From Lingula anatina (taxonomy: Eukaryota; Animalia; Brachiopoda): 64,000 nt of DNA. Positions 8,788-60,700 of the stretch are shown in pieces. The notes beneath the pieces are model-generated. The model searched no databases, was not told where the DNA came from, and saw only the letters and a list, made by a program, of their open reading frames with translations. Within the stretch, counting starts at the first letter, position 1; every line of letters begins with the position of its first letter. The stretch is taken from NCBI GenBank assembly GCA_051362555.1, contig CM120644.1:17010534-17074533 (forward strand). Direction: 5' to 3'. Made by a program: the position numbers and the translations under genes.

Positions 8788-8850
<63 letters not shown>

Positions 8851-18796: not shown

Positions 18797-18885
<89 letters not shown>

Positions 18886-28544: not shown

Positions 28545-28770
28545 TTAATCACGACGGAGCGAGATCCACTCATTGGCCACTTGAAGTTTAGATGTCAGCT
28601 GTCGCACCTGATCTCGCAAAACCTCGTTCTCGTCTCGAAGTTGACCAACCGTGGGTGTGTCTTTTGGTTCTGTTTTAAAGAAAGATATATATTAACTGAA
28701 AATAACAAGTATATCCAAAATAATTCTGGGTGCAGTTTTTAGTGAAAAACGTGTTCATAGTGTACTGATT

Positions 28771-28801
<31 letters not shown>

Positions 28802-33990: not shown

Positions 33991-34635
33991 GTTCCAATCA
34001 CAACAATAATACACAGTAGGCAGATTATATGAGTAGAAATATAGGAACGTGTCGTCTTGTAGGGCCTACATGAATATAGTAATACATATTTACAAAAGCA
34101 GTATTGATTTGCTTTGCCAGAGAGTTTACCGTGGCCTCTACGATGCTTGGGTCGGTGTATTGTGACCGTCCCTTTTCCTTCTTCCTTCATACACTGATTC
34201 ATTCGTAATGCAACTAAAAATCTAATGACTTTTAATATCTTAATTTTCATAACAACATATTCACCCGCAAACAGAAAGTGACGCCAAATTTCCCAGCTCG
34301 ACTACTAAGGGCAAACACTTCCAATCTTTATGATGCATTGCCACGAATTCTTACCCAGATGTTAAAGGACAAGGTTCACGGAAAAATCCATTTCTCGAAT
34401 TTTGAAGATTCAGCACTCAATCTATACACTAGAGGTATGTTTTAATCGATCCCCGCCATTTAAAAATTATAAAAACAATATATTTATAGTGAAAAAGCGT
34501 TTTAGTAAACCTCACCTCAATTCTTACAGTGGGATAGCCCACGTGACACCCATGTGCGCGCGCAGAAAAAAACGCGTGGGGACAAACTCCCTAGCAACCG
34601 CGATCAGTTCATGTATTAGACGTGGAGCAAGTAAC

Positions 34636-35650
34636 ATGCCAAAAACTTGTCGTGAAGCTGGCTGTTGTTCAAGAAAATACAAAGAGAGTTAGAGTCAAGT
34701 TCTCTGTTTTACCTAATGAGAAGTTTAGAAGAGAGAAATGGCTGTCAGCGATAAAAAGAGCAAGAGTAAATAGTGATGGCATTAGGTCTAAACTTTGGTC
34801 GCCGCGAAGAAGTTCTCTAAATGTCTGTTCCCTGCATTTTTCACAGGTTAGAGTCATAAGATGGGTTTTGCATTCTCTTTTACGTAGAATATTATATAAA
34901 TATACCGCATCTGTGGTAATGACAACTGTTGGCATGGGTAAATCAACGATTATATCATTGTCCAAATAATTCGAGACAGTCGTGAAGATTGTGTAGCCTT
35001 TTTTATATTTTTTTTCTTTCTGGAATTTTACAAAACTTGCCAAGGATGACACTAACAGCCGTTGAAAGCTGTTTGTGTCAGATCGACCAGCTTTCTGTTT
35101 ATTATGTCTATTATTGCAAGGTAAGGTGTTCAGGTGCCCACCTGGGTGATAATGATCAGTCATGTCTTTGAGTTAGATCAGTTATACTGTTAGTGTCAGT
35201 TCAATCAGTTTAATGTGAATTATGCAAGGAAAAGTGCTTTAATTGGCGTTCACCTGTGTGATAATGATCAGTGTAAAATAATTTGGGGTTGACACCTTGA
35301 TCGCACAATTACAGACCAGAGCTGTACAAGTGTTAAAAGCCTATCTGAATTTAAATTTGGTTTAAGTAGTTCTTTTGATGTCAAGCCAAAACAAAGCTGG
35401 CGTCAATCACGTGAAATCTTAAGGGCAAGTACTAGTCTTGTAACAATAAAAAGGGCAAATAATGACAAAGTTTTAAAAAATTCACTATGAAAAATGCAAA
35501 TAAGTAAACAAAACAAAAAAATCAGCAATCGTGCACACCCTGATAATGTGCCAAATGTTTCTCCTACTGTACATGTGTACCACGAGTGATCAGGTGATCC
35601 AAAAGGCAGAGATGAGAGTGGATCGGTATGAAAGGATTTTATTAACAAAA
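34636..35650 (+). pseudogene. THAP zinc-finger (transposase N-terminus) remnant
   Basis: MPKTCREAGCC / frameshift / KFSVLP...RREKWLSAIKR...WSP...VCSLHF up to donor 34846; second piece HPDNVPNV...DRYER at ~35525-35650. Frameshifts and stops are present and no DDE core is visible. Confidence 0.75.
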
Positions 35651-36169
35651 TGGATAAATGGTTCACTTTTGAGAACTTTGAACAAAAAAAAAAAAAAAAA
35701 TTGTTCCAATTTCAAATTTGTTTTTATTCTTTTCTTCTCTTCACCAGTTACTTGCGTGGATATATGCAATCCAAATGCACATTTCAAACATCCCGGACAT
35801 TATTTTTATTTGGGATATGTGAATAAAATATTTATCATAAAACTACTTTATTTAACAAAAAATTAAAACAAAAACAAAAGTGATTCATATACGTTATGAT
35901 AATACACACGAAACAAAGGTAATTCTAAGCATCAGATTCATTTTCCTCTTATAAAAATGTAACACTAAGCACTGACATCTTAATACACATTTTGCACTGT
36001 GTGATTGCATTATACTTGAATAAAATGCTGATTTTCCCATGAAAAATAGAAAAAATGAGCGCTAATAGCCATCAACAGACATTGCATAATGTGCTACTGC
36101 ATTATATTTTCCAATCGGATATGCAGTGCATAAAATAATTTCCCATGAAAAAAGCTCTTACATTTGTAT

Positions 36170-36425
36170 ACACTTATTGCACAATGTACGGCTGAGAAAA
36201 AACTGAACGTCTATTTTTATCATGTACACATATATATTGCACAATGTATGGCTGAGAAAAAAAACTGAGCACTTATATTCACACACACATATTGCATAAT
36301 GTCTGACTGAGAAAAAAACTGAGCGCTTACTAGTATATGCAATTGCACAACGTGTGACTGAGACAAAAGTTGACAACTTAAATTCAAACACACATATGTG
36401 GGACTGAAAAAAATGAGCACTTGTA
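36170..36425. repeat. Degenerate ~55-60-bp tandem repeat, about 5 copies
   Basis: Recurring attgcacaatgt..gctgagaaaaaaactgagcactt. Confidence 0.7.
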
Positions 36426-36439
36426 TCCATACACTCTGA

Positions 36440-37276
36440 GTCACAACATGGTATGCTGTCTGGGCCCAACAAGATGTGAAGAAGGTGTGAGCTTCCAGGG
36501 AACGATAGTTTTCCATGGCTTCCAGTGAGTGCAACCCTGAAAGTAATTCCAACATTTTTCCAATTTTAGAGACAGGTAATGAAGTGCTGTTCAATAAAAA
36601 GACACACACTCGCTTGTACAAAAAACAGACAATTTAAAATCTGCCTCTGTATTTCAAATTAACCTTGAAGTAATTAAAAACTCGGTGATCTAGAAACAAA
36701 CAACAAAGGGGCGGTCAATAACAGTACTACATGCAACCAAGGAATTATCTCCTTGATGCAACTTAGTGTCTAATATCACTGATCAGGCAAGAGGATTACT
36801 TTCTTAGTAAGAAATGCATGCTAGTAAGGAATGTAAAATTCAATTTTTTATTCTTTATTCAATTCTTTATTTCCGCTCATCAATTCGTTCAAACTAAGAT
36901 AGGGCGAATAAAAATATTTAGTGTGATATCAGTGCTTGGAACGTTATGATAAACATCGTCATCAGTACGTTTCATTGGAATTTTTAACGCTTCCTTCTCC
37001 ATAAATACTGGTAACTAGATAACCAAACACCTAAAAAAAGCACAAAAAGTAGTGCTGATCTTATTTAGGTAGACTTTTTAAGTATATACTTACTTGGGAC
37101 CTTAACCAAAAAGATGAAAATATCTAGAGTTTACACGTCTGGCGATTGTTTGGGATCATTTTCCACTCATCTGCTGGAAGCTTGTAAGGACAAATATCAT
37201 GCCCATAAAGATCAAGTTTTGCCCTATACCTGTTTAGTGAATCTGGACGAAGTCCTTCCTCATATTCAAACTCCAT
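36440..37276 (-). pseudogene. Decayed transposon accessory ORF (SWIM/YqaJ-associated type N-terminus)
   Basis: Exon 37276-37094 (RYRAKL...CPYKLPADEW / frameshift / NDPKQSPDV*TLDIFIFLVKVP) and exon from 36536 (YRSLEAHTFFTSCWAQTAYH) resemble the YKSLEAYNYF-SGWV family of transposon second ORFs. Confidence 0.6.
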
Positions 37277-40200
37277 TTTCACTCTTGAATTATATGAAAA
37301 TCGCTTTTTTTCGCAGAGCTTTTTGGTCAAGTCTTCATTGTAATACAAGGCGAGATGGCGCCTAACGACCGATTTAGCCCCCACGCGGTTGGTTGCTAGG
37401 GACTATATCCGGTTGTGACGTCATTCCGACTGGGAGAATATGCATAAATGAAGCAACAGATCTGGGTCACGTGGTACTGTGACGACAATCACGATAAAGG
37501 TCTATGAGACTCAACTGAGCTGCATGGTGCAAACAGACAGAATGATTTTGGAAAGTTGTGTTGAACGGAGTTGAGCAATTTTCTTTATGCCTCAGTGTGT
37601 TGCCGTGGGATTCACTAAAATTGCAGCACTCCTTGACTATCTTTCTTTATCTGTGACGGTCTTCCGTGACTAACTTGCTAACTTTGGTGACAATAGTTGC
37701 GATCCTCGCGATCTCGGTCACCTCAGGTGTTTTAGATCATATCAAAAGCTGATAGTCTTTTAGATACTGTCATCAGTTGGCAAGCGTACTAATTGCTGAT
37801 GCATTTTTAAATTCATTGTAGTTGACCAAGAGCTCGTTAACAATAAAACCTGTTAATTATGCACCGCTGCAATTCCCAAGCCAGGTAATAACAGGTATGA
37901 AACTCGTCTTGGTGGGCTTTCATATTTTTCAATATATCTCGTTTATTTCATGGGGTTATTTTATTGGTATTTGTAAATGACGTTATATATCAATACTTAA
38001 ACAATTAAGAGAGAACAGTTTCATTAGCTCTAAATGTATATATTCAAATTCCTGTTTATTATTTTGAAGATTCAGCACTCAATCTATACAATTCAATATT
38101 GGAGGTAATACCCACATATTTTACAAGCTCTTGATAAAAAGAAAAACAAGAATTTGAATTAAACAATTAAGTTCTAACACGGTCGCAAACATTAATAAAA
38201 GAAATTGCTCTCAGGGTATCTTGAAGCTTCCGTGGAAGAAAACGTGTTGAGGAAAAACAGGAAAAAGAGCGTTATATTAAAGAAAAAATGGGAACTGCTG
38301 TAATAAAATGGTTCGTTATCCTAATTCGTTTATGCATTGAGGATTTGTTTCTGAAGAGTATTTCATCTGAAATATTAAATAATTTAAAAGATTGATCATT
38401 TTATAACTTGAAACGCAAATTCTGCGTCAGTACGCAATTTTTTTTTTTTTTTTTTTTTTTGCAAATTTGTAAGCTTATAACACCGTGCTATAAAGATCTA
38501 CTCAAGAAAAAATTTTGCTTGGGTAAAATTGAGTACGGAATGAACTGGAGACACTTGGCTTGTCATTAAGTTTACACGAAAATATGTCAGGTAACTTTAT
38601 ACTGTCTTTGAAAGAGTAAAGATTGAAAGATAATTTTAGACAAACTTTGACGGAGGAAATACCTACGAAAAGTAATGGGCTATTTCGCCAACATCTTGTT
38701 GAACATTTTACACTGCAATTCTATTTAAATAAGCTAAGGAACTAATTGCCAAATTTATACTCTCATCACATAACAGGGGGATAACTAGACCTGCAAAAAT
38801 TGTACGCACATATTTTAAAAAATTACAAGCACATACAGCAAAATGTAGACTTACGCAAAACATGAAGGACAGCGTAATCACAGCAAATGTACCTCATATA
38901 GTAGCTTAATTTCCATTAATAATAAAATCATCATTTAAGTCAAAAATATTCTCGCGATTTAATAACTATTCTAATTTACCCAGAACGGTATATTTATTTT
39001 AAAGGCGGTTAACTGAAATATAGTTTTATGATGTGTGTGAAAATTGCCCATGTCACCCTGTTAGTTTGGAGGTCTAAGCTGGATCAAGTCCATGTTAAAA
39101 TTCCTATGAAGTTATGCAGGAAAATTTCTTCCTTTCTTTCTCTAGCTCCTCGATAAACCTGGTGTTCAGATTTTATCTAGTACCCCCAGGTCTACGGGAG
39201 CTGCTCTTTGTAACTAACGCACAGGTAGATTTTTACCTGAGATAACTGAGGTAAAGCTTAGATAGAGAGTGCGTTCGATACAAGCAAGACAAATTGAATG
39301 CCATTTAACCCTCTAATTAAGAGGTAAAGGAAGTTCCAGTTAGATGGATGATTAAGATAGGACTTGTAAAGGTAACGGGCATTGTTTACCTCAGTTTAAT
39401 AAAAGTATGCAAGACGGAGTGTCAGCGGTTTAATAAAATAAATTGAATTTCACAAATAACATGGACCTCATATGCAATAATCAACATTTCCCTTAACTCA
39501 TTCAAATGCAGTGTTTTATACAACTTGGGATAACCATGATTAAATGCTTGTTAAAGAATTGACTAGACGGGAAATGGTTTTACACAGCTTCACGAGGATT
39601 TAGACCCCTCGGGTAAGAGATTTGAATGAGTATAAACTTTTATCAGAAGCCAGAGAAGTCATCTTACAGGTAGACAATGCAGCTCAGTTTAACAGCTAAG
39701 CACGCTTTATTCTCCAGTGGCTCGATTGTCGTCATCAGACCACGTGACAACGTAGCTCATTTACTCTCAGGCCGAGCAAAAAGGACGTTTTTTAAAGCCA
39801 AAAATTTACAAAATGAGATTTTAATTTGCGTATTTGGATAAAGATATCGTTAGTTGGGCATGTTTTCTGAAGAATATTTTCCGTTCAGGCCATTCTGACG
39901 GCATGGAGCAAATCCTTTAACAACACACTGATATCCAAAGTAGAACTACTTGAATGTCTGTGGTTCGCATCGATGTGGTCGACATGTTACTTCAGAACTT
40001 CGAAAATTTTCAGTAACTTACCGATTTTACAAGCCTCGTGCAAATGGCGACTCTCTATTATTAGAAATGTCGAGGGGAATTCCCCTTTGTTGTTATTGGC
40101 TTCATTTTTTCAACTAAGGCAAACATCTTGTTCAAGGACGTTTATTGTCCAATGGAAGATGCATCTATAGTGTTAATTAATTAGCTTGATATGTTTAGGT

Positions 40201-40939
40201 GCTATTTATTACACATATGTCAGGGTGTCTCCCCCCCCCTCCCCCCCCATCCACACTCAGCTTGCAAGGTACCCCCTTCTACTCCTTTTCATATAATACA
40301 CCTGTTACGGAGTTTATGGGCTTCGTAACTATTGATAAAAGGAGTCAGTTTGTAGAATATACTTTGTTTTATTTCCGAGTGCAGTTTACAAGACTTCCAT
40401 GTGCTAACCTCAACCCTTTAAGTCACCACTCTTACTAGTTGTTGACCCTCTGCTCTAGCACTTCAGCTTTTTGGAAATTATCCAACTTTTCAATAAATTT
40501 CAGATATATTTATATTATAATAAATGGTGTACCGTGTGCAAATACATCAGTTCCGTGTGCATTTTACCATATATGGTCAGAATTACTTTACTTATTGAAC
40601 AATGCTGATTGCGTGGACAATACGTGAAATCATCAAACCTAAATGCTGGATTACATGAGATTGGTTATACAGATCATGTACGATATGCAGCTAATATCTT
40701 TACCTTATTATGTATAAAGTGATGCAGGAGGCAGGTCATTGTTTTTGCTTAGGTATCGATGTCCAAATTTGCCTTACAAATTGTCACGCTTCACAGATAA
40801 AACATGACTTTACACGTTAAATCCACAGACTATCATGCGGTGCACAATACAGTGCACAGGGTCAGAAAGTACTCAGTATACCGAAGAGGGGTTTACCAAA
40901 ATTATTATTTCAAATGTTATGTTACCCCGTGACACACCG

Positions 40940-41777
40940 AACAAAATTTAGCAAAGCCAAAAAAATCCCTTACCCTTGGTCTGTTCATGTGTGTGTGTGT
41001 GTGTGTGTGAGTGCGTGTGTCGCACATGATAGAGTCTACAAAAAATTAGTCCCCAAGCTTGTTAATACAAGGTCGTTCTTCTTTAAAAGGTTAATTCGAA
41101 CATCTTTTAGATGTGATTTATATACATAGGCCTATTCCAACTCAGTAGGCCTATTACGTATTATTCCAATATTTTTACAAACGATTTAACTTGAGTATTC
41201 AACCTGAGTACATTCACATACATATTCATGTACTTGTGCAAACAAAAGTTACATGTCATGTCACATACCCTGTTTTATTCTAAATTTTGATAACAACATA
41301 TTCACCTGCAAACAGAAAGTAACGCCAAATTTCCCAGATCGATCACTAAAGGCAAACACTTCCAATCTTTATGATGCCTTGCCACGAAAATTTTACCCAG
41401 AATTAACAACACACTGACATCCCAAGTATACCTACTTGAATATCTCTCGTTCACATTGTTGATGTGGCTGACATGCTACTGTAGAAATTCAAAAATTTCA
41501 GTGACTTACCGATTTTACAAGCCTCGTGCAAATGGCGACACTCTATTATTAGAAATGTCGAGGGGAATTCCCCCTTATTGCTATCGACTTCATTTTACAA
41601 CGAAGGCAAACATCTAGTTGGACGTTTAAAATTGTCCAATGGAGCATGCATCCATAGTGTTTTAACATTTAAAATATTAAAATAAGCTTGATATGTTTAT
41701 GTGCTATTTATTACACATATGTCAGGGTTGTGAGCCTATGACAAATTGAACACATTGATAACATAGGCCCTAATGTT

Positions 41778-41808
<31 letters not shown>

Positions 41809-42940
41809 CGCACATTATCAAGTCTACAAAAAATTTGTCCCAAAGCTTATAAAAACATGGTCGTTCCTCTTTAAAAGGTTATTTCGAACATCTTTTAAAT
41901 CTGATTTATATACATATTCCAACTCAGTATTACGTATTATTCCAATATTTTTTTACAAACGGTTTCACTTGAGTTTTCAACCTGAGTACATTTACATACA
42001 TTTTCATGTACTTGTGCAAACAGAATTACATGTCATTTCACATAATTATTCCAAATCTTAATGATGTCGTAAGCAGGACAGATTGTATTGCCCCATAGTT
42101 AAAAGCACACTGATATCCCAAGTACAGCTATTAGTATTTATATGCCTCTTGGTCTCAGTGATATGGTTGTCCCTTTCCTTCAGAATTTCGTAAAAACATC
42201 ATTACCTTACCTACTGCTAATGGCCGGTGGCTAACATTATTATTATTGTGAAAGTTTCTTTAACTTAGTCATTCATACCCTGTTTTATTCCAAAGCACTT
42301 TATATCTAAATTTTCATAACAACATATTTACTTGCAAACAGAAAGTAACGCAAAATTTCCAAGATCGATCAGGGCAAACGTTTCCAATCTTTATGATGTC
42401 TTGCCACGAATTTTTTACCCAGATGTTAACAATACACTTATATCCCAAGTAGAACTACTTGAATGTCTGTCGTTCACGTTGGTGTGCTTGACATGTTACC
42501 TCAGAAATTCGAAAAATGTCAGTATTACTTACCGATTTTACAAGCCTCCTGCAAATGGCGACACCCTATTTTTAGAAATGTCGAGGGGGAATTCCCCTTT
42601 GTTGCTATTGACTCTATTTTTTCAACCAAAACAAACATCTAGTTCAAGGACGTTTATTGTCCAATGGAATATGCATCTATATGGTGTTTTAACATTTAAA
42701 ATATTAAAATAAGCTTGATATGCTTATGTGCTGTTTATTACACATGTCAGGGATGTAGGCCTAATAGTATAACAAAATGAACACATTGATAACGTAATAG
42801 GGCCTACAGTGGCAGATCATGGGACACAGTAATCCACAGTGGGTCTCCGCCCCCTCCTCCTCTTTAGTTTGTGAGGTAGGCATTTCCCCTTCTGTCCCTT
42901 TCCAAATAATGATACACCAAGCAAAACAAGACAAAGCCAA
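40940..42940. repeat. Two diverged tandem copies of the ~1-kb GT-microsatellite / kappaB unit (others: ~34190-40230 split by the transposon, and 45820-47005)
   Basis: Shared blocks: (GT)n-cgcacat, ctttaaaaggtta, acagaaagtaacgccaaatttccc, gcaaatggcgac, gaggggaattcccc. Confidence 0.85.
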
Positions 42941-45570
42941 TAAAAAAAAAATTCACGTATTCCACTGCTCACTGCTGCTTGACACCAATTTATGAAATGG
43001 AATGTTTATGAAAGTATCGGTTTTATAAACCAAGTTCTAACAGTGCTGCCGTTTTTTTTTTTTTTTTCGAAATTGCAATTACGTTCAAACATTCATGCAT
43101 CTTGGTCTGTAATATGGTGGAGAAGCAAGATAAAATTTTCTGCTATAATTCTGAAAAAATATTTTCAATGATAAGTTAAAAACAACTCAAACAACCATAT
43201 TATATTATGTCACTTTACTTGCTGCACAATATCTGCATTTTGTACATCAAAACTACTAAATATCCTTTATAATTTTTCTCACTTCTCAAAACATCAAATC
43301 TTCCTTGACGTTTTCAAACAAAATCCCATTTTCACTTGTTTCTCCTCATTATTATAAACAACTCTACCTGCAACAACACATACAAACAATTTACAATACA
43401 AAATTATAGAAGTTTTCTTGTTATATAATATTGCTGGACTGTCACAGGCGAGTTACGGATTGAAGCACACCAGGGCCTCGTTTTACAAACAAACTCGACT
43501 TAAAAGTTGAACTCATAACCTTACCATCACAACTGACATCTTTTTTCATCAAAGGTAAATCCTTAGTAGCGTGCCAAAATACACCCCACTGTCAGCATTA
43601 AAAAATGTTTCTCTCAAATTAAAACCAAAGTCCAACCAGTGGTTTAATCGGATGCAAAAACAATTCTGTTACTCCAGTTTCTTTGTAAAATGGGGCCCAA
43701 TACTACCTATGGCCTTACTACAAATTTTATTTACAGATTGGTTCATTATTCATACATGTGTGTATATGAATACTGATGTTTCATGTATTGCACCTGAAGT
43801 GTGCAATTTTTGTAAATAACGAACGTGTAGTGCAATGTTACCTAAAAGAGCACCCAAAGTAGATGCCACGGAGGCCTCTACACGAATTCCCCACAGTCTG
43901 GCAATTGACATACTACAAGTTGGTGTAATTCAGCTATCACTTTAAACAAAAAACAAATGCTAAAAAAATTAGCATTTAAAAAAAATTAAATGAAATGTTT
44001 TCTTTTAAATATGTTGAATCTAGGGCAATCCTTATTGACAGAAATGGTGACTAGAAAGACAGAAACTTGAGCATCAAACATTGTCTTTCTACAAATTAAA
44101 AGATCTATCATTCTAGAAAAAATATTCACTCTTTTCTTTGATACGAAAATATAGGGAAAATGTCATCGAGTAAGAAGGTCAAGGTTTAAAACATAGTGAA
44201 TTATTTGGTAGTGGCTGTGCAATAAACTGTCACATTCATTTGCAAACAGCATAACCTATCACGTTTTTCACTGAAATGTGAGAAATGCCAAGAAAAAAAT
44301 TCCATCAGCCGCAAGTGTTATGAATTCAAAGTAACAATAACAGCATCTTCCAGCAACAAGTAAAACTCAGAGAGTCAAAGTGCTGAAGTGGTAAACTCTG
44401 AATTTTAGTGTTTTTATTTTAAGAAACCATTATTGTAACTGAGAAATATCAAATTTTCTTAACACCTGCTGCCAACTCTACCAAGCACAAGAAAAATCCT
44501 CAGAACCAGCTTTTCTATACCAGCCAATAGATGGCACTCATGCTCAAGATATCCTTTGACAAGTTATTGTAACCAACCTTTGCCAGTGACAGTCAGCAAT
44601 CTTCTACCGAAAAAAAAAATGTAACTTGCAGCTACCATAATTTCATTCTTTATAAAATGAAATTCTCACCACCATTGTAATTCATTGAAATTCAACAACC
44701 TAAAAAAAAATTAACAAAAAAATATCTCAAGATTAACTTTGCATACTATGTGCTGTCATTATATATTTCTCTCTACATATCTACGTTTGTACTATTTGTA
44801 TGCACTTCTGGGCAATAACAACATATTTAATATAATAATAATAATAATAGTGCTATGGTCAGCTTCTAGGCTGACCAAAAGTTGGGCATAACTGACCACA
44901 AGACAAGTGTTCAATGCACTACTGACAATATTAATCAAGTTTTGATACATTTCTTTCAATGATAATATACACATAATTTGTAGTAGCCACTTACAGAAAA
45001 ATCCTTTATACTTTGTGTACAATAATTTGTAGCCAGTTACAAAAATTTACTTCATACTTCGATCATATGCTGTGTATTGACTTATACATAACTGTGTATT
45101 AATCCTTTTTACAGATAAAATATACAAATATAATATCTATTCTTCAAACGTTATGTGTTCTAATTTACACATGCAGTAATAACAATAGTTGCTGTATCTT
45201 ATAATACTTATAATATTAATAACAATAATAGATCTACTCTGGAAAAAGAGGCTGCTATGAAAAATGCAAAGGATGCTGCTGCTGTTAGTAAAATGTCCCA
45301 TTTACTCCTTCAATACAAATCTGTCTTTTCACCTTCTTCATTATTTCAGAGTACTGTCAACGATTTTTCCATATAGCTACAGGTAACTTGAAGGGAGGGG
45401 GGTGAGTAAAATCAATTGCTACAGCTTAATTGTGATCAATTGTCATTTTGCTTGGCCAATTAAAATGATTTTACCAAAATTTACTTCCAGAAAGTTAAAA
45501 CTTGAAAATCTGGCCGTCTTCCAAAAGACCCAGAAGATGACCTCAATCCACCTCAAAAATTCAGAGCATT

Positions 45571-45606
<36 letters not shown>

Positions 45607-45880
45607 TTTTAAGTACTCTAAAACTGAAGGGTTTTTAAAAGACATTATTCCACAGACCTCAGACATACCACAACACAATCACCTTTGGATCACTCAAGCT
45701 CTCATAATACATATATACTGCAAAGCAAACCTGTTTTCAACCAAACCACTTGCACTTTTTCTCAATTCATCCCTAAGGGGTATCCACAGGCCAGGGGTAT
45801 CCACTTATATCCCCTTCTAAAAAATGATACACCAAGTAAAACAAGACAAAGCCAAGAAAAGCCTAAAACCCTGGGTCTGT

Positions 45881-45922
<42 letters not shown>

Positions 45923-46491
45923 GCTATATGTGTACACGTGTGTCGTACATGATCTACTCTACAAATAAATAGACCCCAAAAATAAATAGACCCCAAGTTT
46001 ATGAATACACCATCGTTTTTCTTTAAAAGGTTATTTGTAAAATCTTTAAATTTTGAAATATACCATGACTTTCCCAACACAGTATTACGTATTATTTCAA
46101 TCATTTGATTTTTTTAAATAAACGTTGGAACTTCAGTTTTCAACCTGGGTACATTTACATATGAACATATACGTGTTTCTGTGCAAACGGAAAGTTCATT
46201 GTAACGCAACATGATGATTCCAAATCTTTATGATGCCGTGCGTTGGACAGATAACATTGCCCCAGTGTTAACAACACACTGATATATATCCCAAGTACAA
46301 CTACAAGCTTGGTCTCAGCGATGTGGTTGACATGTTTCTTCAGAATTTTGTAAAACACCATTACCCTTACCTACTGCTAATGACTGGTGCCGTACAATGT
46401 TATTATTATTATTATTACTGTGACCGTTCATTTAACTACTTCCTTCATACCTTTTCATTCTTTTAAAATGCTCTTAATATCTTATTTTTTA

Positions 46492-48129
46492 ATAACATAT
46501 TTACGTGCAAACAGAAAGTAACGCCAAATTTCCCAGTTCGATCACTAAGGACAAACACAGTCAATCTTTACGTTAATTTTAACAGAGATGTTAACAACAC
46601 ACCGATAGCACAAGTTAAACTACTCTCTCTCTCTCTCTCTCTCTCTCTCATGTCTCTCGTTAACATTGATATGGTTGACTCGTTACTTTTGAATTTCGTC
46701 AAAATATCGGCAATTAAGTCATTTACCGATTTCAAACGCCCCGTGCAAATGGCGACTCTCTTTTATTAGAAATGACGAGGGGAATTCCCCTTTATTGTTA
46801 TTGACGCAACTAACGCGAACATCTAGTTGAAAGCCGTTTATCAATTTGTGCATCTATAGTGTTAATAAGCTTGATTTGATACATGCTTTTTGTTATACAT
46901 ACGCCAAGAAGGCAGGGCTATATGACAAACTGAACACAATGATAACATAATACATGTGCACTGGCGGATCATGGGACCCCCTAACCCCCCCCCCCCCCCC
47001 CCTCCATAACATATTTACGTGCAAACAGAAAGTAACGCCAAATTTCCCAGTTCGATCACTAAGGACAAACACAGTCAATCTTTACGTTAATTTTAACAGA
47101 GATGTTAACAACACACCGATAGCACAAGTTAAACTACTCTCTCTCTCTCTCATGTCTCTCGTTAACATTGATATGGTTGACTCGTTACTTTTGAATTTAG
47201 TCAAAATATCGGCAATTAAGTCACTTACCGATTTCAAACGCCCCGTGCAAATGGCGACTCTCTTTTATTAGAAATGACGAGGGGAATTCCCCTTTATTGT
47301 TATTGACGCAACTAACGCGAACATCTAGTTGAAAGCCGTTTATCAATTTGTGCATCTATAGTGTTAATAAGCTTGATTTGATACATGCTTTTTGTTATAC
47401 ATACGCCAAGAACGCAGGGCTATATGACAAACTGAACACAATGATAACATAATACATGTGCACTGGCGGATCATGGGACCCCCTCCCCCCCCCCCATAAC
47501 ATATTTACGTGCAAACAGAAAGTAACGCCAAATTTCCCAGTTCGATCACTAAGGACAAACACAGTCAATCTTTACGTTAATTTTAACAGAGATGTTAACA
47601 ACACACCGATAGCACAAGTTAAACTACTCTCTCTCTCTCTCTCTCTCTCATGTCTCTCGTTAACATTGATATGGTTGACTCGTTACTTTTGAATTTCGTC
47701 AAAATATCGGCAATTAAGTCACTTACCGATTTCAAACGCCCCGTGCAAATGGCGACTCTCTTTTATTAGAAATGACGAGGGGAATTCCCCTTTATTGTTA
47801 TTGACGCAACTATCGCGAACATATAGTTGAAAGCCGTTTATCAATTTGTGCATCTATAGTGTTAATAAGCTTGATTTGATACATGCTTTTTGTTATACAT
47901 ACGCCAAGAAGGCAGGGCTATATGACAAACTGAACACAATGATAACATAATACATGTGCACTGGCGGATCATGGGACCCCCTCCCCCCCCCCCTCCCCAT
48001 AACATATTTACGTGCAAACAGAAAGTAACGCCAAATTTCCCAGTTCGATCACTAAGGACAAACACAGTCAATCTTTACGTTAATTTTAACAGAGATGTTA
48101 ACAACACACCGATAGCACAAGTTAAACTA

Positions 48130-48160
<31 letters not shown>

Positions 48161-49645
48161 ATGTCTCTCGTTAACATTGATATGGTTGACTCGTTACTTT
48201 TGAATTTAGTCAAAATATCGGCAATTAAGTCACTTACCGATTTCAAACGCCCCGTGCAAATGGCGACTCTCTTTTATTAGAAATGACGAGGGGAATTCCC
48301 CTTTATTGTTATTGACGCAACTAACGCGAACATCTAGTTGAAAGCCGTTTATCAATTTGTGCATCTATAGTGTTAATAAGCTTGATTTGATACATGCTTT
48401 TTGTTATACATACGCCAAGAACGCAGGGCTATATGACAAACTGAACACAATGATAACATAATACATGTGCACTGGCGGATCATGGGACCCCCTAACCCCC
48501 CCCCCCCCCCCCCCCCCTCCATAACATATTTACGTGCAAACAGAAAGTAACGCCAAATTTCCCAGTTCGATCACTAAGGACAAACACAGTCAATCTTTAC
48601 GTTAATTTTAACAGAGATGTTAACAACACACCGATAGCACAAGTTAAACTACTCTCTCTCTCTCTCATGTCTCTCGTTAACATTGATATGGTTGACTCGT
48701 TACTTTTGAATTTCGTCAAAATATCGGCAATTAAGTCACTTACCGATTTCAAACGCCCCGTGCAAATGGCGACTCTCTTTTATTAGAAATGACGAGGGGA
48801 ATTCCCCTTTATTGTTATTGGCGCAACTAACGCGAACATCTAGTTGAAAGCCGTTTATCAATTTGTGCATCTATAGTGTTAATAAGCTTGATTTGATACA
48901 TGCTTTTTGTTATACATACGCCAAGAAGGCAGGGCTATATGACAAACTGAACACAATGATAACATAATACATGTGCACTGGCGGATCATGGGACCCCCCC
49001 CCCCCCCCCCATAACATATTTACGTGCAAACAGAAAGTAACGCCAAATTTCCCAGTTCGATCACTAAGGACAAACACAGTCAATCTTTACGTTAATTTTA
49101 ACAGAGATGTTAACAACACACCGATAGCACAAGTTAAACTACTCTCTCTCTCTCTCTCTCTCTCTCATGTCTCTCGTTAACATTGATATGGTAAACTCGT
49201 TACTTTTGAATTTCGTCAAAATATCGGCAATTAAGTCACTTACCGATTTCAAACGCCCCGTGCAAATGGCGACTCTCTTTTATTAGAAATGACGAGGGGA
49301 ATTCCCCTTTATTGTTATTGACGCAACTATCGCGAACATATAGTTGAAAGCCGTTTATCAATTTGTGCATCTATAGTGTTAATAAGCTTGATTTGATACA
49401 TGCTTTTTGTTATACATACGCCAAGAAGGCAGGGCTATATGACAAACTGAACACAATGATAACATAATACATGTGCACTGGCGGATCATGGGACCCCCTC
49501 CCCCCCCCCTCCCCATAACATATTTACGTGCAAACAGAAAGTAACGCCAAATTTCCCAGTTCGATCACTAAGGACAAACACAGTCAATCTTTACGTTAAT
49601 TTTAACAGAGATGTTAACAACACACCGATAGCACAAGTTAAACTA

Positions 49646-49676
<31 letters not shown>

Positions 49677-51159
49677 ATGTCTCTCGTTAACATTGATATG
49701 GTTGACTCGTTACTTTTGAATTTAGTCAAAATATCGGCAATTAAGTCACTTACCGATTTCAAACGCCCCGTGCAAATGGCGACTCTCTTTTATTAGAAAT
49801 GACGAGGGGAATTCCCCTTTATTGTTATTGACGCAACTAACGCGAACATCTAGTTGAAAGCCGTTTATCAATTTGTGCATCTATAGTGTTAATAAGCTTG
49901 ATTTGATACATGCTTTTTGTTATACATACGCCAAGAACGCAGGGCTATATGACAAACTGAACACAATGATAACATAATACATGTGCACTGGCGGATCATG
50001 GGACCCCCTAACCCCCCCCCCTCCATAACATATTTACGTGCAAACAGAAAGTAACGCCAAATTTCCCAGTTCGATCACTAAGGACAAACACAGTCAATCT
50101 TTACGTTAATTTTAACAGAGATGTTAACAACACACCGATAGCACAAGTTAAACTACTCTCTCTCTCTCTCATGTCTCTCGTTAACATTGATATGGTTGAC
50201 TCGTTACTTTTGAATTTCGTCAAAATATCGGCAATTAAGTCACTTACCGATTTCAAACGCCCCGTGCAAATGGCGACTCTCTTTTATTAGAAATGACGAG
50301 GGGAATTCCCCTTTATTGTTATTGGCGCAACTAACGCGAACATCTAGTTGAAAGCCGTTTATCAATTTGTGCATCTATAGTGTTAATAAGCTTGATTTGA
50401 TACATGCTTTTTGTTATACATACGCCAAGAAGGCAGGGCTATATGACAAACTGAACACAATGATAACATAATACATGTGCACTGGCGGATCATGGGACCC
50501 CCCCCCCCCCCCCCCCCCCCCATAACATATTTACGTGCAAACAGAAAGTAACGCCAAATTACCCAGTTCGATCACTAAGGACAAACACAGTCAATCTTTA
50601 CGTTAATTTTAACAGAGATGTTAACAACACACCGATAGCACAAGTTAAACTACTCTCTCTCTCTCTCTCTCTCTCTCATGTCTCTCGTTAACATTGATAT
50701 GGTAAACTCGTTACTTTTGAATTTCGTCAAAATATCGGCAATTAAGTCACTTACCGATTTCAAACGCCCCGTGCAAATGGCGACTCTCTTTTATTAGAAA
50801 TGACGAGGGGAATTCCCCTTTATTGTTATTGACGCAACTATCGCGAACATATAGTTGAAAGCCGTTTATCAATTTGTGCATCTATAGTGTTAATAAGCTT
50901 GATTTGATACATGCTTTTTGTTATACATACGCCAAGAACGCAGGGCTATATGACAAACTGAACACAATGATAACATAATACATGTGCACTGGCGGATCAT
51001 GGGACCCCCCTCCCCCCCCCCCCTCCCCATAACATATTTACGTGCAAACAGAAAGTAACGCCAAATTTCCCAGTTCGATCACTAAGGACAAACACAGTCA
51101 ATCTTTACGTTAATTTTAACAGAGATGTTAACAACACACCGATAGCACAAGTTAAACTA

Positions 51160-51212
<53 letters not shown>

Positions 51213-53213
51213 GTCTCTCGTTAACATTGATATGGTTGACTCGTTACTTTTGAATTTAGTCAAAATATCGGCAATTAAGTCACTTACCGATTTCAAACGC
51301 CCCGTGCAAATGGCGACTCTCTTTTATTAGAAATGACGAGGGGAATTCCCCTTTATTGTTATTGGCGCAACTAACGCGAACATCTAGTTGAAAGCCGTTT
51401 ATCAATTTGTGCATCTATAGTGTTAATAAGCTTGATTTGATACATGCTTTTTGTTATACATACGCCAAGAAGGCAGGGCTATATGACAAACTGAACACAA
51501 TGATAACATAATACATGTGCACTGGCGGATCATGGGACCCCCTCCCCCCCCCCCTCCCCATAACATATTTACGTGCAAACAGAAAGTAACGCCAAATTTC
51601 CCAGTTCGATCACTAAGGACAAACACAGTCAATCTTTACGTTAATTTTAACAGAGATGTTAACAACACACCGATAGCACAAGTTAAACTACTCTCTCTCT
51701 CTCTCTCTCTCTCTCTCATGTCTCTCGTTAACATTGATATGGTTGACTCGTTACTTTTGAATTTCGTCAAAATATCGGCAATTAAGTCATTTACCGATTT
51801 CAAACGCCCCGTGCAAATGGCGACTCTCTTTTATTAGAAATGACGAGGGGAATTCCCCTTTATTGTTATTGACGCAACTAACGCGAACATCTAGTTGAAA
51901 GCCGTTTATCAATTTGTGCATCTATAGTGTTAATAAGCTTGATTTGATACATGCTTTTTGTTATACATACGCCAAGAAGGCAGGGCTATATGACAAACTG
52001 AACACAATGATAACATAATACATGTGCACTGGCGGATCATGGGACCCCCTAACCCCCCCCCCCCCCCCCTCCATAACATATTTACGTGCAAACAGAAAGT
52101 AACGCCAAATTTCCCAGTTCGATCACTAAGGACAAACACAGTCAATCTTTACGTTAATTTTAACAGAGATGTTAACAACACACCGATAGCACAAGTTAAA
52201 CTACTCTCTCTCTCTCTCATGTCTCTCGTTAACATTGATATGGTTGACTCGTTACTTTTGAATTTAGTCAAAATATCGGCAATTAAGTCACTTACCGATT
52301 TCAAACGCCCCGTGCAAATGGCGACTCTCTTTTATTAGAAATGACGAGGGGAATTCCCCTTTATTGTTATTGACGCAACTAACGCGAACATCTAGTTGAA
52401 AGCCGTTTATCAATTTGTGCATCTATAGTGTTAATAAGCTTGATTTGATACATGCTTTTTGTTATACATACGCCAAGAACGCAGGGCTATATGACAAACT
52501 GAACACAATGATAACATAATACATGTGCACTGGCGGATCATGGGACCCCCTCCCCCCCCCCCCCCCCCCCCCCCCCCCCATAACATATTTACGTGCAAAC
52601 AGAAAGTAACGCCAAATTTCCCAGTTCGATCACTAAGGACAAACACAGTCAATCTTTACGTTAATTTTAACAGAGATGTTAACAACACACCGATAGCACA
52701 AGTTAAACTACTCTCTCTCTCTCTCTCTCTCTCATGTCTCTCGTTAACATTGATATGGTTGACTCGTTACTTTTGAATTTCGTCAAAATATCGGCAATTA
52801 AGTCACTTACCGATTTCAAACGCCCCGTGCAAATGGCGACTCTCTTTTATTAGAAATGACGAGGGGAATTCCCCTTTATTGTTATTGACGCAACTATCGC
52901 GAACATATAGTTGAAAGCCGTTTATCAATTTGTGCATCTATAGTGTTAATAAGCTTGATTTGATACATGCTTTTTGTTATACATACGCCAAGAAGGCAGG
53001 GCTATATGACAAACTGAACACAATGATAACATAATACATGTGCACTGGCGGATCATGGGACCCCCTCCCCCCCCCCCTCCCCATAACATATTTACGTGCA
53101 AACAGAAAGTAACGCCAAATTTCCCAGTTCGATCACTAAGGACAAACACAGTCAATCTTTACGTTAATTTTAACAGAGATGTTAACAACACACCGATAGC
53201 ACAAGTTAAACTA

Positions 53214-53244
<31 letters not shown>

Positions 53245-54741
53245 ATGTCTCTCGTTAACATTGATATGGTTGACTCGTTACTTTTGAATTTAGTCAAAAT
53301 ATCGGCAATTAAGTCACTTACCGATTTCAAACGCCCCGTGCAAATGGCGACTCTCTTTTATTAGAAATGACGAGGGGAATTCCCCTTTATTGTTATTGAC
53401 GCAACTAACGCGAACATCTAGTTGAAAGCCGTTTATCAATTTGTGCATCTATAGTGTTAATAAGCTTGATTTGATACATGCTTTTTGTTATACATACGCC
53501 AAGAACGCAGGGCTATATGACAAACTGAACACAATGATAACATAATACATGTGCACTGGCGGATCATGGGACCCCCTAACCCCCCCCCCCCCCCCCCCCC
53601 CCCCCCTCCATAACATATTTACGTGCAAACAGAAAGTAACGCCAAATTTCCCAGTTCGATCACTAAGGACAAACACAGTCAATCTTTACGTTAATTTTAA
53701 CAGAGATGTTAACAACACACCGATAGCACAAGTTAAACTACTCTCTCTCTCTCTCATGTCTCTCGTTAACATTGATATGGTTGACTCGTTACTTTTGAAT
53801 TTCGTCAAAATATCGGCAATTAAGTCACTTACCGATTTCAAACGCCCCGTGCAAATGGCGACTCTCTTTTATTAGAAATGACGAGGGGAATTCCCCTTTA
53901 TTGTTATTGGCGCAACTAACGCGAACATCTAGTTGAAAGCCGTTTATCAATTTGTGCATCTATAGTGTTAATAAGCTTGATTTGATACATGCTTTTTGTT
54001 ATACATACGCCAAGAAGGCAGGGCTATATGACAAACTGAACACAATGATAACATAATACATGTGCACTGGCGGATCATGGGACCCCCCCCCCCCCCCCCC
54101 CCCCATAACATATTTACGTGCAAACAGAAAGTAACGCCAAATTTCCCAGTTCGATCACTAAGGACAAACACAGTCAATCTTTACGTTAATTTTAACAGAG
54201 ATGTTAACAACACACCGATAGCACAAGTTAAACTACTCTCTCTCTCTCTCTCTCTCTCTCATGTCTCTCGTTAACATTGATATGGTAAACTCGTTACTTT
54301 TGAATTTCGTCAAAATATCGGCAATTAAGTCACTTACCGATTTCAAACGCCCCGTGCAAATGGCGACTCTCTTTTATTAGAAATGACGAGGGGAATTCCC
54401 CTTTATTGTTATTGACGCAACTATCGCGAACATATAGTTGAAAGCCGTTTATCAATTTGTGCATCTATAGTGTTAATAAGCTTGATTTGATACATGCTTT
54501 TTGTTATACATACGCCAAGAACGCAGGGCTATATGACAAACTGAACACAATGATAACATAATACATGTGCACTGGCGGATCATGGGACCCCCTCCCCCCC
54601 CCCCCTCCCCATAACATATTTACGTGCAAACAGAAAGTAACGCCAAATTTCCCAGTTCGATCACTAAGGACAAACACAGTCAATCTTTACGTTAATTTTA
54701 ACAGAGATGTTAACAACACACCGATAGCACAAGTTAAACTA

Positions 54742-54778
<37 letters not shown>

Positions 54779-55118
54779 GTCTCTCGTTAACATTGATATG
54801 GTTGACTCGTTACTTTTAAATTTCGTCAAAATATCGGCAATTAAGTCACTTACCGATTTCAAACGTCCCGTGCAAATGGCGACTCTCTTTTATTAGAAAT
54901 GACGAGGGGAATTCCCCTTTATTGTTATTGACGCAACTAACGCGAACATCTAGTTGAAAGCCGTTTATCAATTTGTGCATCTATAGTGTTAATAAGCTTG
55001 ATTTGATACATGCTTTTTGTTATACATACGCCAAGAACGCAGGGCTATATGACAAACTGAACACAATGATAACATAATACATGTGCACTGGCGGATCATG
55101 GGACCCCCCCCCCCCCCC
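46492..55118. repeat. Tandem satellite, 17 monomers of ~507 bp
   Basis: Monomer starts (ataacatatttacgtgc) near 46492, 47006, 47496, 47999, 48521, 49011, 49516, 50025, 50522, 51029, 51560, 52073, 52580, 53083, 53610, 54105, 54611. Monomers are near-identical apart from (CT)n and poly-C lengths and a few diagnostic SNPs. Confidence 0.98.
46779..46790. promoter_or_regulatory. Palindromic kappaB-consensus site GGGGAATTCCCC (first satellite copy; one per monomer, plus 40074, 41562, 42586)
   Basis: Exact match to the GGGRNNYYCC consensus on both strands. The motif is certain; function is not shown. Confidence 0.55.
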
Positions 55119-57256: not shown

Positions 57257-57709
57257 TTATTGACACTTTGGGCGGAGTTTGGTCGTCAGCTCTCTGATTT
57301 GGTCTCGTAAAAACGCGTTTTCTTCCTGTGCATTCTGAAGCGCAATTCGAAGTTCCCCGTTGGTTGGAGACTCTGATGGACCTGAGGCAAAACAAATAAA
57401 AAATATATAAATATGTAAAACATGGTAAAAAGTTAAAAGAAGAATATACAAAAACATTTTCCCCAATGGGAATCAATTGACATCGACCCATAATGCCAAA
57501 ATTTTAATATCAGAATATAAAAATCTTTAATCACCAGTTATTGAACATATATTTGCCGAACATAGAGAAATATAAAGGGGTCGAACACGCGCTTTTAACT
57601 ATATAGCCTACGGCGTGGGCGGAAGCTGGGGTTGATTGGGGAAAATATGGTGTACTATTTTGAATTATCGTCACCATATAAGCTGTCAAGCCAGCAACTT
57701 GTCTCCGCT

Positions 57710-57743
<34 letters not shown>

Positions 57744-60700
57744 CAACCTAAAATCGAAACACAAGTAGGGCCTACCTTTAATTGTTTGAACCAACTTCGG
57801 TATTAACTCTTTGTCGTCGACTGGAATGTATTTCAGAGGTTTGAACTCATCGGGGATTTGCTCTGGAGGGATATCCATAAGGACTGGAATAACAACATCT
57901 TCTCTTGATTCCACAGCTTTATGCATGGCAAGCTCTCTTTCCTTTGCACACCAGGGGCACTCCATAAAGCTCTTGGACAGAAACACAACGGTGCGCTTTG
58001 ATCCGTAAACCGCTTCACCCATAGAGGTTATGACAGGCCTCCCTGGGTGGAAGTCACGTACCCCATAGCAGCACTGGACTCCCAATTCCTCTAGCTGCTC
58101 TATCACTGGTTCTACGACAGCTTTGTCTTCACTGCTGTGGGCAATAAATGCGTCGTGGCGAAGGGGCTCCATTGAAGAACTGTGGAGTGAAAACATTCTG
58201 TTTCAATGGGATCATTTCAACAAGTGGCGTAAGAAAGTAACTTTCAAAATTCAGAGAACACAAATAAAAACAAAATGCAGGAAAACTGCAGGAAAACAAT
58301 AGGATAAGTTAGAGAAAGTTGCTTATGTAAGTTCCAGTTTCATGGTTTTTCATTCTAATTCCAATGGATGGCTAAAAACATTTACTCTTCCATCCGATCT
58401 TAATATGGCCCTTACTTTATTTCTTGCTGGTTAGTGGTTGCTGAACATGTTATGCACATGTGTCTGGCAGTGATCAGGGTTCTACAAAGTTCTTCAAAGT
58501 CACCTGGGGGCATATCTGAAATATTCTTCACCACTTCAGCATAAAAGTCCCCTGCCGCACCTGTAAGCGAAACTAATCTTTTTTAAAGTGTCAATCGTAA
58601 GGTGCGGAAAGTGATGCAATGGGTTTTGCGCAACCAATCATTAGATGCTTTATAACATATAATTTATTTTTTGAGTGCACGATATAAAAGTCGCTGAAAG
58701 CAAGTGTGCTTTTCATGTACGCCTATGCATAATCAGACATTTGATAACTTCGTTAGCTGCCATCTTTTGTGTAAATTGTAGCCCAAAAAGTCTATCCCTA
58801 TCTTTACAATAAGCCTGCCATCTGCGATATACAAACACGTACATACAAATAAAAAAAAAATGATAGCGTGAAATGTAGAATTATATACACTTCTAATCTT
58901 ACAGTCCAGTAACCGTCGGTTGTTACATTGGTGTTATGGAGTACATGTGTATGGTACTGTTAAATATCTATAATGACATGACTATTACTTACTGGAAAGT
59001 CGCAGAAGGTTTGAATCCTGTAGCCGATCCTTTAGGTCTCTAATGTTTGTATAATTGTTCTTGTTGGCCCAGTCTTTTAGTTCCTGCACTTTTTGGAATT
59101 GTAAGACATCATGGAAGTTTGTGCTCAGGTTGGTCTGGTTAATGATGGTATATTCAGCAGGGTCTAATAGTTCAGCAAGGTGCTCTAAAGTCCTGGTCTG
59201 TACATACCCCTGTAAATATGGCATCAATTAAGTTATTTTACAGGAACTGGTATATTTGATGAAACAGTTATTAAAATATCGTCCATGATTTCAGGACGTG
59301 CGCAGTTATTAGCCTGGACACTTGACCTCTACACATCTGCCTTTCTATTGAATCACAATTGGTTATACCATTAAAAATATATATTGAACCATAATTGGCC
59401 ATATAATTTAATATCTAAAAATAATCTTTAAATGAATACATCTTCTTAATGGTACTCGCGAGGCGATGTAAAAAATACACATAAACGTGGTAAAAAATAA
59501 ACCGCTTTGAAACAAATACTCGAATTTATGTATTTTTCCACAACTGATAGAAACTTTATGTATCATAATCCAGTGCTATTTAAGGGCTAAAAGTTGACCA
59601 CGTTCACACTGCTACATGTTTACCTGTATATCTGGTATTTCAAAACGCCTCAACAGTTCTACTACGGCAGCGTGTTTTTTCTCTTCTGCCACCATTCTTG
59701 GTGTCTTTCCCTCCTGTAATAGCAAAACTTTTGTTACTTACTGGATGAGGAGGGAATTGTAGGATTTAAGTGCAGTCTAGTAAAATGGTGCTTTCCCGTA
59801 ATACGGTCTTAATATGATTTCTGAAAAAGGTGTAGCCATATTCCTGTGCATTGACTCTTTCACATTTACCTTATTCTGTATACTGGAATCCGCCCCGTGT
59901 TGGAGGAGAAGTATTATATACCAATCTGTTACGAACTGATTACGATTAAACCACGAATCCTGAAATTTTTGATTCCTGGCGATTCGTGGGATTCGTGATC
60001 TGTGTGAAATAGGGGCATTAGCGATCTTTCAAGTTATAACTAATGATCTTAAAGCATGTAACGAATTTCATTGTATATACGCTGTACATATTACAGTGAG
60101 AATCTTTGCTTACCGATTTTTTGTTTATAGCTGATTACTTTGAACACCCCGTGGAAATAAACATGATTCTACGGCATGGATTATCTGTTCACTCACATTC
60201 TTTGTCCATATTCTCAGGGTGGGGATACACCACGTTACATGCTTTAAGATCATTAGTTATAACTTGAAAGATCGCTAATGCCCCTATTTCACACAGATCA
60301 CGAATCCCACGAATCGCCAGGAATCAAAAATTTCAGGATTCGTGGTTTAATCGTAATCAGTTCGTGAAGTTCTTAACAGATTGGTATATAATAGTAGTCA
60401 GTTCTTGCACTTCTTGATCAATCGGGAATTCGTGGCAAAAATTTTTAGCTGTTCAAAGTTTTGGCCACAAACTCCCGATTCCAAAAAATCGTAGTGAATG
60501 TCTGGACAATATTCGTGCGATTCAAGCCGAATCCCAGAATATTCGTAACAATATCGCACCTGTATCGTAACTGAATCGGAGAGCGTGTCGAATTAGGAAC
60601 TTCAGAAAAGACATAATGCATATTTTTAAAGATGATTACTTACAACTAATGAGAAAGATCGCTATGCAGAATATGTAAACCATGTACAATAACTTCTCAC

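What the first reader, a model, noticed from the sequence alone, without database searches (positions are those of the whole stretch)
40074..54917. Twenty perfect kappaB palindromes amplified as a satellite upstream of a TIR gene
Seen: GGGGAATTCCCC occurs once in all 17 monomers and in three older, visibly diverged progenitor units (40074, 41562, 42586). It and nearby GCAAATGGCGAC (YY1-like) stay invariant while flanks drift. All lie 5' of gene 1, and with the 5.55-kb insertion removed the first site is about 1.1 kb from its ATG. Established: this is a canonical Rel/p50 site, and TIR signalling activates NF-kappaB. Inference: an immune-responsive promoter module became a satellite that may act as a copy-number-tunable enhancer or an NF-kappaB sink, forming a feedback loop.
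Basis: partly seen in the sequence, partly recalled or inferred. Interest (0 to 1): 0.85.

Follow-up and report, generated by a model that had tools for sequence, protein, structure and literature searches.

The report
Tandemly copied kappaB promoter in Lingula
In the lamp shell Lingula, a 0.5-kb piece holding a perfect NF-kappaB-type site and a splice donor, likely the promoter and first exon of an ankyrin-TIR immune gene, occurs 20 times in a row; 17 near-identical copies are likely a very recent expansion, and any effect on the gene is untested.

Summary
The motifs are real: 20 GGGGAATTCCCC and 20 GCAAATGGCGAC at the stated places. The locus is Lingula, between two ankyrin-helical-TIR-coiled-coil paralogues. 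The 17 monomers differ by only 0.75%, so a 12-mer would be invariant by chance with P=0.75; they count as one lineage. Across the four independent lineages the kappaB, YY1-like and a GTAAGT-donor motif are the three longest invariant runs, with modest support (scan P 0.02-0.05; not significant in a three-way test). Two older homologues lack the site. New: on the gene's strand every unit reads kappaB site, GCCATT, then a splice donor, and both genes have an acceptor-like motif before the ATG exon. The unit is likely a duplicated promoter plus untranslated first exon, and the 5.55-kb Kolobok-like transposon would then lie in intron 1. RNA reads did not show the splice. DNA contigs of one run show the unit as low-copy with no 17-fold signal, so the array may be polymorphic. 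A sink is implausible (about 20,000 consensus sites expected per genome). A tunable enhancer is open but untested. This is a new variant of a known kind (promoter or enhancer tandem repeats).

The parts
46492..55104 (-). Array of 17 monomers of about 505 bp, each with one kappaB palindrome, one YY1-like motif, one donor motif, a (CT)n tract and a poly-C linker; monomers 1-5 equal 11-15 at all diagnostic sites (10-mer duplication)
39917..40230 (-). Old unit nearest gene 1 (right part): kappaB 40074-40085, YY1-like 40040-40051, donor with last exon base 40022; likely the working promoter and first exon (inferred)
34238..34365 (-). Left part of the same unit, separated by the transposon
41274..41772 (-). 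Old unit 2 (kappaB 41562, donor 41510)
42299..42806 (-). Old unit 3 (kappaB 42586, donor 42533)
42095..42270 (-). Older homologue (type B): donor-like CTTACC kept, no kappaB palindrome
46265..46440 (-). Second type B homologue, no kappaB palindrome
34366..39916 (.). Kolobok-like DNA transposon: TTAA duplication, AGGA ends, frameshifted THAP domain at about 34630-34850; high copy elsewhere
28545..33498 (-). Gene 1: ankyrin exons, helical middle domain, TIR exon, coiled-coil last exon; ATG at 33420; acceptor-like TTATTTCAG ending at 33499
57257..63979 (-). Gene 2, paralogue of gene 1, with the same acceptor-like motif before its ATG exon; the array lies about 2.1 kb beyond its stop codon
43000..45850 (-). 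Low-copy segment transcribed on the minus strand, no ORF over 60 codons, directly downstream of the array; link to the array not shown

Best explanation
The repeated unit is likely the NF-kappaB-type proximal promoter and short untranslated first exon of a Lingula ankyrin-TIR gene, copied locally several times, and the 17-copy array is likely a very recent, probably polymorphic by-product of unequal crossing-over that adds redundant promoter copies with little effect of their own. Shown: motif order on the gene's strand (kappaB site, 22-23 nt, GTCGCCATTTGC, 19 nt ending in the donor G|GTAAGT), an acceptor-like motif before the ATG exon in both paralogues, local origin, near-identity of the monomers, transposon boundaries. 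Inferred: Rel binding, transcription start near GCCATT, splicing from 40022 to 33498 (intron 968 bp, 6523 bp with the transposon), neutrality and polymorphism of the array.
For: Donor TCG|GTAAGT in 18 of 20 units and TCG|GTAAAT in 2 of 20; GGTAAGT occurs only twice on that strand outside the units, once at a real gene 1 donor, and has P about 0.004 in a 60-bp stretch. The three longest invariant runs over four lineages are the YY1-like motif (13), kappaB (12) and the donor (10); core 58 of 68 columns invariant against 133 of 217 in flanks; scan-corrected P 0.005-0.018 on the right part and 0.018-0.051 on the whole unit. The acceptor-like motif is shared by genes 1 and 2. In run X19 the depth of bin 33473-33511 equals two reads ending at 33499, with none beyond (bin arithmetic only). 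Array divergence 0.75% is below the 1.6% heterozygosity reported for Lingula (PMC4595640, passage). X1 contig depth over the first monomer is 190 against about 1400-2800 expected for 17 copies on one or both haplotypes.
Against: No joint or loose end showed a first exon in 4 RNA runs laid on 33200-34365; most reads came from paralogues, and about 3 reads in X17 and X18 run unspliced across the acceptor. In one search RNA over the unit-bearing bins was 19-89 bases in X17, and the bin of the nearest unit is masked by transposon reads. A motif-blind shuffle gives two runs of 12 or more with P=0.14, up to 0.32 with block shuffles. In the three-way alignment of the long units the core is not significant (P 0.16-0.37) and other runs of 17-20 are longer. 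Type B homologues keep a donor-like motif without kappaB. The tool warns that contig depth is no copy number and that records are filtered, so polymorphism rests on one run and is weak.
Confidence: 0.5

Rival explanations
1. Copy-number-tunable enhancer or bank of alternative first exons: the 17 extra kappaB modules raise induced expression of gene 1 (or gene 2) in proportion to their number.
For: All 17 monomers keep the site, the YY1-like motif and (15 of 17) the GTAAGT donor; they lie 13-21 kb 5' of gene 1's ATG exon in the gene's orientation; tandem repeats act this way at maize b1 (PMC3798267, abstract) and rice IPA1 (PMC5364388, abstract).
Against: Retention in the array is expected by chance (P=0.75); one of the 11 variable columns lies in the donor motif itself; almost no RNA over the first monomer; the array may be absent from run X1.
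Confidence: 0.2
2. The units serve the 2.8-kb non-coding transcript at 43.0-45.85 kb: the array's promoter fires and splices to, or activates a start in, that segment.
For: The segment is transcribed on the minus strand at depth 12-26 in stranded run X14, more than gene 1 (1-3), and lies 0.9 kb downstream of the first array donor; a pyrimidine-rich acceptor-like motif ends at 45817; 6 of 25 molecules begin at 45763 in X17.
Against: No joint from a unit was among the 15 listed of 212 joints; depth at 45888-47100 is near zero; the RNA comes from other individuals whose array state is unknown; depth in X11 is only 0-2.
Confidence: 0.12
3. Neutral duplicated intergenic DNA: the palindrome is an ancestral chance motif carried along without function.
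For: Motif-blind shuffles are not significant, three-way scan not significant, older homologues lack the site, no RNA proof.
Against: A perfect 12-bp palindrome is expected about 5 times per genome, yet it lies 5' of an immune-type gene, next to a correctly oriented donor, and survives four lineages (P about 0.01 at the unit's overall rate).
Confidence: 0.1
4. Part of the array is an assembly over-expansion.
For: Monomers 1-5 and 11-15 are identical at all 11 diagnostic columns; X1 shows no 17-fold depth.
Against: Monomers carry a patterned set of diagnostic variants and (CT)n lengths with three-unit periodicity, and pairs 6/16 and 7/17 differ; this needs a real array of at least 7-10 units.
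Confidence: 0.06
5. NF-kappaB sink: the array titrates Rel dimers away from other targets.
For: 20 perfect palindromes exceed the about 5 expected by chance in a whole genome.
Against: About 22,000 GGGRNNYYCC matches are expected per 425 Mb, so 20 sites are about 0.1% of candidate sites.
Confidence: 0.02

Closest known systems
rDNA spacer promoters and enhancer repeats (PMC12326227, passages read)
   Same: A gene's own promoter duplicated upstream in the same orientation and expanded into repeats; reported effects range from dominance to promoter interference.
   Different: Those are RNA polymerase I units with shown initiation; here a polymerase II, inducible-factor-type module with a splice donor, and initiation is not shown.
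Maize b1 853-bp tandem repeats (PMC3798267, abstract and outline) and rice ipa1-2D repeats (PMC5364388, abstract and outline)
   Same: Locus-specific tandem array of a several-hundred-bp unit upstream of a gene.
   Different: There the effect on expression is shown genetically; here it is untested, and the unit carries a single defined kappaB palindrome and a donor.
Multimeric kappaB sites in viral enhancers and reporter constructs (recalled, no call)
   Same: Reiterated perfect kappaB sites.
   Different: Those sites are tens of bases apart next to the start site; here they are 500 bp apart, each within a whole promoter-like unit.
Kolobok DNA transposons (PMC6004289, passages read)
   Same: The 5.55-kb insertion has the TTAA duplication, AG ends and a THAP domain.
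   Different: It concerns the insertion only; its reading frame is broken and the DDE domain was not tested.
Cytoplasmic TIR adaptors (MyD88, TIRAP) and IkappaB-type ankyrin proteins
   Same: TIR fold closest to Hydra TRR-2 (Z 19.9, rmsd 1.3, 122 aligned), MyD88 (18.8, 2.2, 130) and TIRAP (18.6, 2.7, 137); N-terminal ankyrin repeats.
   Different: Ankyrin + helical domain + TIR + coiled coil; all 14 named relatives checked are Lingula anatina proteins; no signalling role tested.

Membership tests
NF-kappaB (Rel) binding site | Matches GGGRNNYYCC (consensus recalled), palindromic p50-type | tested here: met
   20 of 20 sites are GGGGAATTCCCC
NF-kappaB (Rel) binding site | Bound by the organism's Rel protein and inducible | not testable with these tools
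   needs EMSA, ChIP or reporter
NF-kappaB (Rel) binding site | More conserved than flanks | tested here: inconclusive
   four-lineage scan P 0.005-0.05, motif-blind run test P 0.14-0.32, three-way scan P 0.16-0.37
Satellite DNA | Head-to-tail homogenised monomers with higher-order structure | tested here: met
   17 monomers, 0.75% divergence, 10-mer duplication
Satellite DNA | High copy number in the genome | tested here: not met
   8.6-kb local array; X1 contig depth 88-190 over units against 1e4-1e5 over transposons (one run, depth is a rough guide)
Duplicated promoter plus first exon (spacer-promoter-like) | Donor in gene orientation and acceptor before the ATG exon | tested here: met
   (sequence motifs only)
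Duplicated promoter plus first exon (spacer-promoter-like) | Transcripts start in the unit and splice to the gene | tested here: inconclusive
   no joint or loose end listed; about 2 reads stop at the acceptor in X19 and about 3 cross it in X17 and X18
Copy-number enhancer repeats (b1, ipa1-2D type) | Expression depends on repeat number | not testable with these tools
   no matched DNA and RNA from the same animals
Spliced-leader RNA gene array | The short exon is found on very many mRNAs | tested here: not met
   RNA over unit bins near zero in 3 of 3 runs
Kolobok transposon (insertion) | TTAA duplication, AG termini, THAP domain | tested here: met
   (THAP E 2.4e-6), criteria
Kolobok transposon (insertion) | DDE catalytic domain | not tested
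   not searched
MyD88-like adaptor | TIR domain | tested here: met
   Pfam TIR_2 E 1.6e-25; fold search
MyD88-like adaptor | Death domain next to the TIR | tested here: inconclusive
   helical domain predicted; no Pfam death hit in 2 exon queries or 10 relatives; fold lists were filled by TIR and ankyrin hits, the domain was not folded alone

The most novel reading that the evidence does not exclude
The array is a segregating battery of 17 working NF-kappaB-inducible promoters with their own first exons, so that repeat number sets how strongly a lineage-specific ankyrin-TIR gene (or the neighbouring non-coding RNA) answers infection, and the gene product feeds back on the pathway.
Probability: 0.15. 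Interest if true: 0.7.

Novelty: new variant of a known kind. Interest (0 to 1): 0.4.

Why it matters
If the unit is the promoter, the locus marks a candidate direct NF-kappaB target in a brachiopod and shows, in one 20-kb stretch, the steps by which a promoter is duplicated, split by a transposon and turned into a young tandem array. If array length varies among animals, it gives a natural dosage series for testing whether promoter copy number tunes an invertebrate immune gene. If the array is inert, it is an ordinary local expansion in a fast-changing gene cluster.

Tried and rejected
Whole genome: none held, so the unit predicted upstream of gene 2 and genome-wide copy number could not be checked. 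Metagenome scans: the two-motif pattern gave 0 matches; the protein query gave 77 pattern hits and 0 confirmed; neither says anything about Lingula. No RNA holder was listed by the run index; RNA runs came by species label. Rfam on 39900-47500: 1 match, to a GT tract, far below its gathering score. Spliced-leader gene array considered because of the exon-donor layout and rejected on RNA depth. Dispersed mobile element as the source of the unit: rejected on low DNA depth. Death domain for the middle region: no Pfam, PDB-sequence or Atlas hit; not excluded. The second Atlas query did not complete. Earlier-finding look-ups returned nothing. Literature: searches listed no paper on a kappaB-bearing tandem array or on this gene family (titles and abstract starts only). 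Gerdol et al. 2018 on Lingula immunity is not held (seen only as a reference) and it or its supplements may already describe the ankyrin-TIR family.

Full report
Observation. GGGGAATTCCCC occurs 20 times in the window, at 40074, 41562, 42586 and 17 times from 46779 to 54906; GCAAATGGCGAC occurs 20 times 34-35 bp to its left; no other match with up to 2 mismatches to the palindrome exists. Chance expectation is 0.0008 per 64 kb. The insertion between gene 1 and the first site spans 34366-39916 with TTAA on both sides and AGGA ends; removing it leaves 1099 bp to the ATG at 33420. It holds a frameshifted THAP domain and meets three Kolobok features given in PMC6004289 (passages).

Organism and genes. 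The TIR exon's 3 hits are all Lingula anatina proteins; P0003 is 97-100% identical to four ankyrin exons of gene 1 and 84% over the TIR. Genes 1 (28545-33498) and 2 (57257-63979) are minus-strand paralogues with ankyrin exons, a helical middle part, a TIR exon and a coiled-coil last exon. All 14 family members whose names I saw are from Lingula (10 of the 150 listed hits were looked up). The TIR fold is closest to Hydra TRR-2, MyD88 and TIRAP. A W-C-x-x-E motif, recalled as the catalytic glutamate region of enzymatic TIRs, is present in 6 of 13 members scanned. A death domain was neither found nor excluded. So a role in NF-kappaB signalling is plausible but assumed.

How much conservation is there? 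The 17 monomers have 11 variable columns of 460 outside the microsatellite, mean pairwise difference 0.75%; any 12-mer is invariant with P=0.75. They are one lineage. Monomers 1-5 equal 11-15 at all diagnostic columns, with a three-unit pattern beneath, as expected from unequal exchange. Aligning the three old units with one monomer, 191 of 285 ungapped columns are invariant; the longest runs are TGCAAATGGCGAC (13), the palindrome (12) and TTACCGATTT (10). The 68-column core has 58 invariant against 133 of 217 in flanks (Fisher P 2e-4, boundaries chosen after the fact). A sliding-window correction gives P 0.005-0.018, and 0.018-0.051 when the left half of the unit is added (275 of 405 invariant). 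Against this: a motif-blind shuffle gives two runs of 12 or more with P 0.14-0.32, and in the 715-column three-way alignment of the long units the core is not significant (P 0.16-0.37) and runs of 17-20 occur elsewhere. Two older homologues lack the palindrome. Constraint is therefore suggested, not shown.

On the gene's strand each unit reads kappaB site, a 22-23 nt spacer, GTCGCCATTTGC, and 19 nt later TCG|GTAAGT (18 of 20; GTAAAT in 2). GGTAAGT occurs only twice more on that strand, once at a true donor of gene 1. Both genes have TTATTT(C)AG about 80 nt before the ATG. The simplest reading is a proximal promoter with a short untranslated exon 1; intron 1 would be 968 bp, or 6523 bp with the transposon, which then does not separate the site from the start. 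The labels YY1-like and kappaB rest on recalled consensus sequences.

Read evidence. (3 RNA runs from 3 studies, 1 DNA contig set, 28500-47100): gene 1 is expressed at low depth on the minus strand (1-5 in the two stranded runs). RNA over the bins of units 2, 3 and the first monomer is 19-89 bases in X17 and at most about 250 in the others; the nearest unit shares its bin with the transposon end. Only 15 of 212 joints and 24 of 1344 loose ends were shown, all from repeats. (4 RNA runs from 2 studies, 33200-34365): no joints; the 20 of 34 loose ends shown come from paralogues and a small repeat. Depth in X19 fits two reads stopping at 33499, X15 also drops to zero after that bin, while about 3 reads in X17 and X18 continue unspliced. 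The first exon is thus neither shown nor refuted. DNA contig depth in X1 is 88-156 over the old units and 190 over the first monomer, against 131-208 over gene 1 and 1e4-1e5 over transposons; 17 copies would give about 1400-2800. The unit is not a common dispersed repeat, and X1 seems to lack the amplified array; the tool warns that depth is no copy number and that records are filtered. Array divergence is below the reported heterozygosity of 1.6% (PMC4595640, passage), which fits a young, unfixed array.

Mechanism. Most likely (0.5): an ancestral kappaB-type promoter and exon 1 were duplicated as 1-1.5-kb blocks, one copy was split by a Kolobok-like element, and the 0.5-kb part of the farthest copy was recently expanded; the nearest copy does the work and the array is mostly redundant. 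Rivals: number-dependent enhancer or alternative first exons (0.2); promoter of the minus-strand transcript at 43.0-45.85 kb (0.12), which is expressed above gene 1 in X14 and X17 but hardly in X11 and has no ORF over 60 codons; no function (0.1); partial assembly artefact (0.06); sink (0.02), since about 22,000 consensus sites are expected per 425 Mb.

Comparison. It works, if at all, like rDNA spacer promoters (PMC12326227, passages) or the b1 and ipa1-2D repeats (abstracts); the defining test of those, an effect on expression, could not be run. Searches listed no paper on a kappaB-bearing array; the library lacks most subscription papers, including the Lingula immune survey.

Verdict. Real sequence feature, overstated by counting 17 near-identical copies as evidence; better read as a tandemly copied promoter and first exon; new variant of a known kind; interest 0.4.

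Noticed in passing
window 43000-45850: Low-copy segment transcribed on the minus strand (depth 12-26 in X14, 21-45 in X17, 0-2 in X11), no ORF over 60 codons, A-tract near 43052-43067 on that strand, flanked by a 61-bp direct repeat (42885-42945 and 45800-45860); identity unknown.
   Followed up: partly
window 30992-32560 and 59840-63290: Each ankyrin repeat is one exon in a tandem exon-intron unit of about 410 bp; gene 1 has two identical exon copies (187 bp, 100%), gene 2 has a 1.2-kb duplication at 97.6% and an inverted piece at 59912-60393 that truncates one ankyrin exon. Ankyrin number varies from about 1 to 14 Pfam matches across the family.
   Followed up: partly
window 34366-39916: Kolobok-like transposon with both ends high-copy in DNA contigs; an internally deleted form (joint 34518 to 37437) appears in 2 RNA runs and the DNA contigs.
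   Followed up: partly
window 31236-31414, 32117-32293, 63382-63549: A 180-bp high-copy element with GGGGCGGAT ends inserted independently in introns of both genes; abundant in RNA reads.
   Followed up: no
window 5873-16036 (-): Exons of a Mediator subunit 24 gene (Pfam Med24_N in 3 of 3 ORFs tested).
   Followed up: partly
window 18600-24850 (+): Exons that look like a RacGAP-type gene (name recalled; no Pfam hit in 3 ORFs tested).
   Followed up: partly
left half of each unit, e.g. window 41312-41345: GCAAACAGAAAG and AAATTTCC form a second well-conserved block across the four lineages; it resembles an IRF-type element (recalled consensus) and would lie in intron 1.
   Followed up: no
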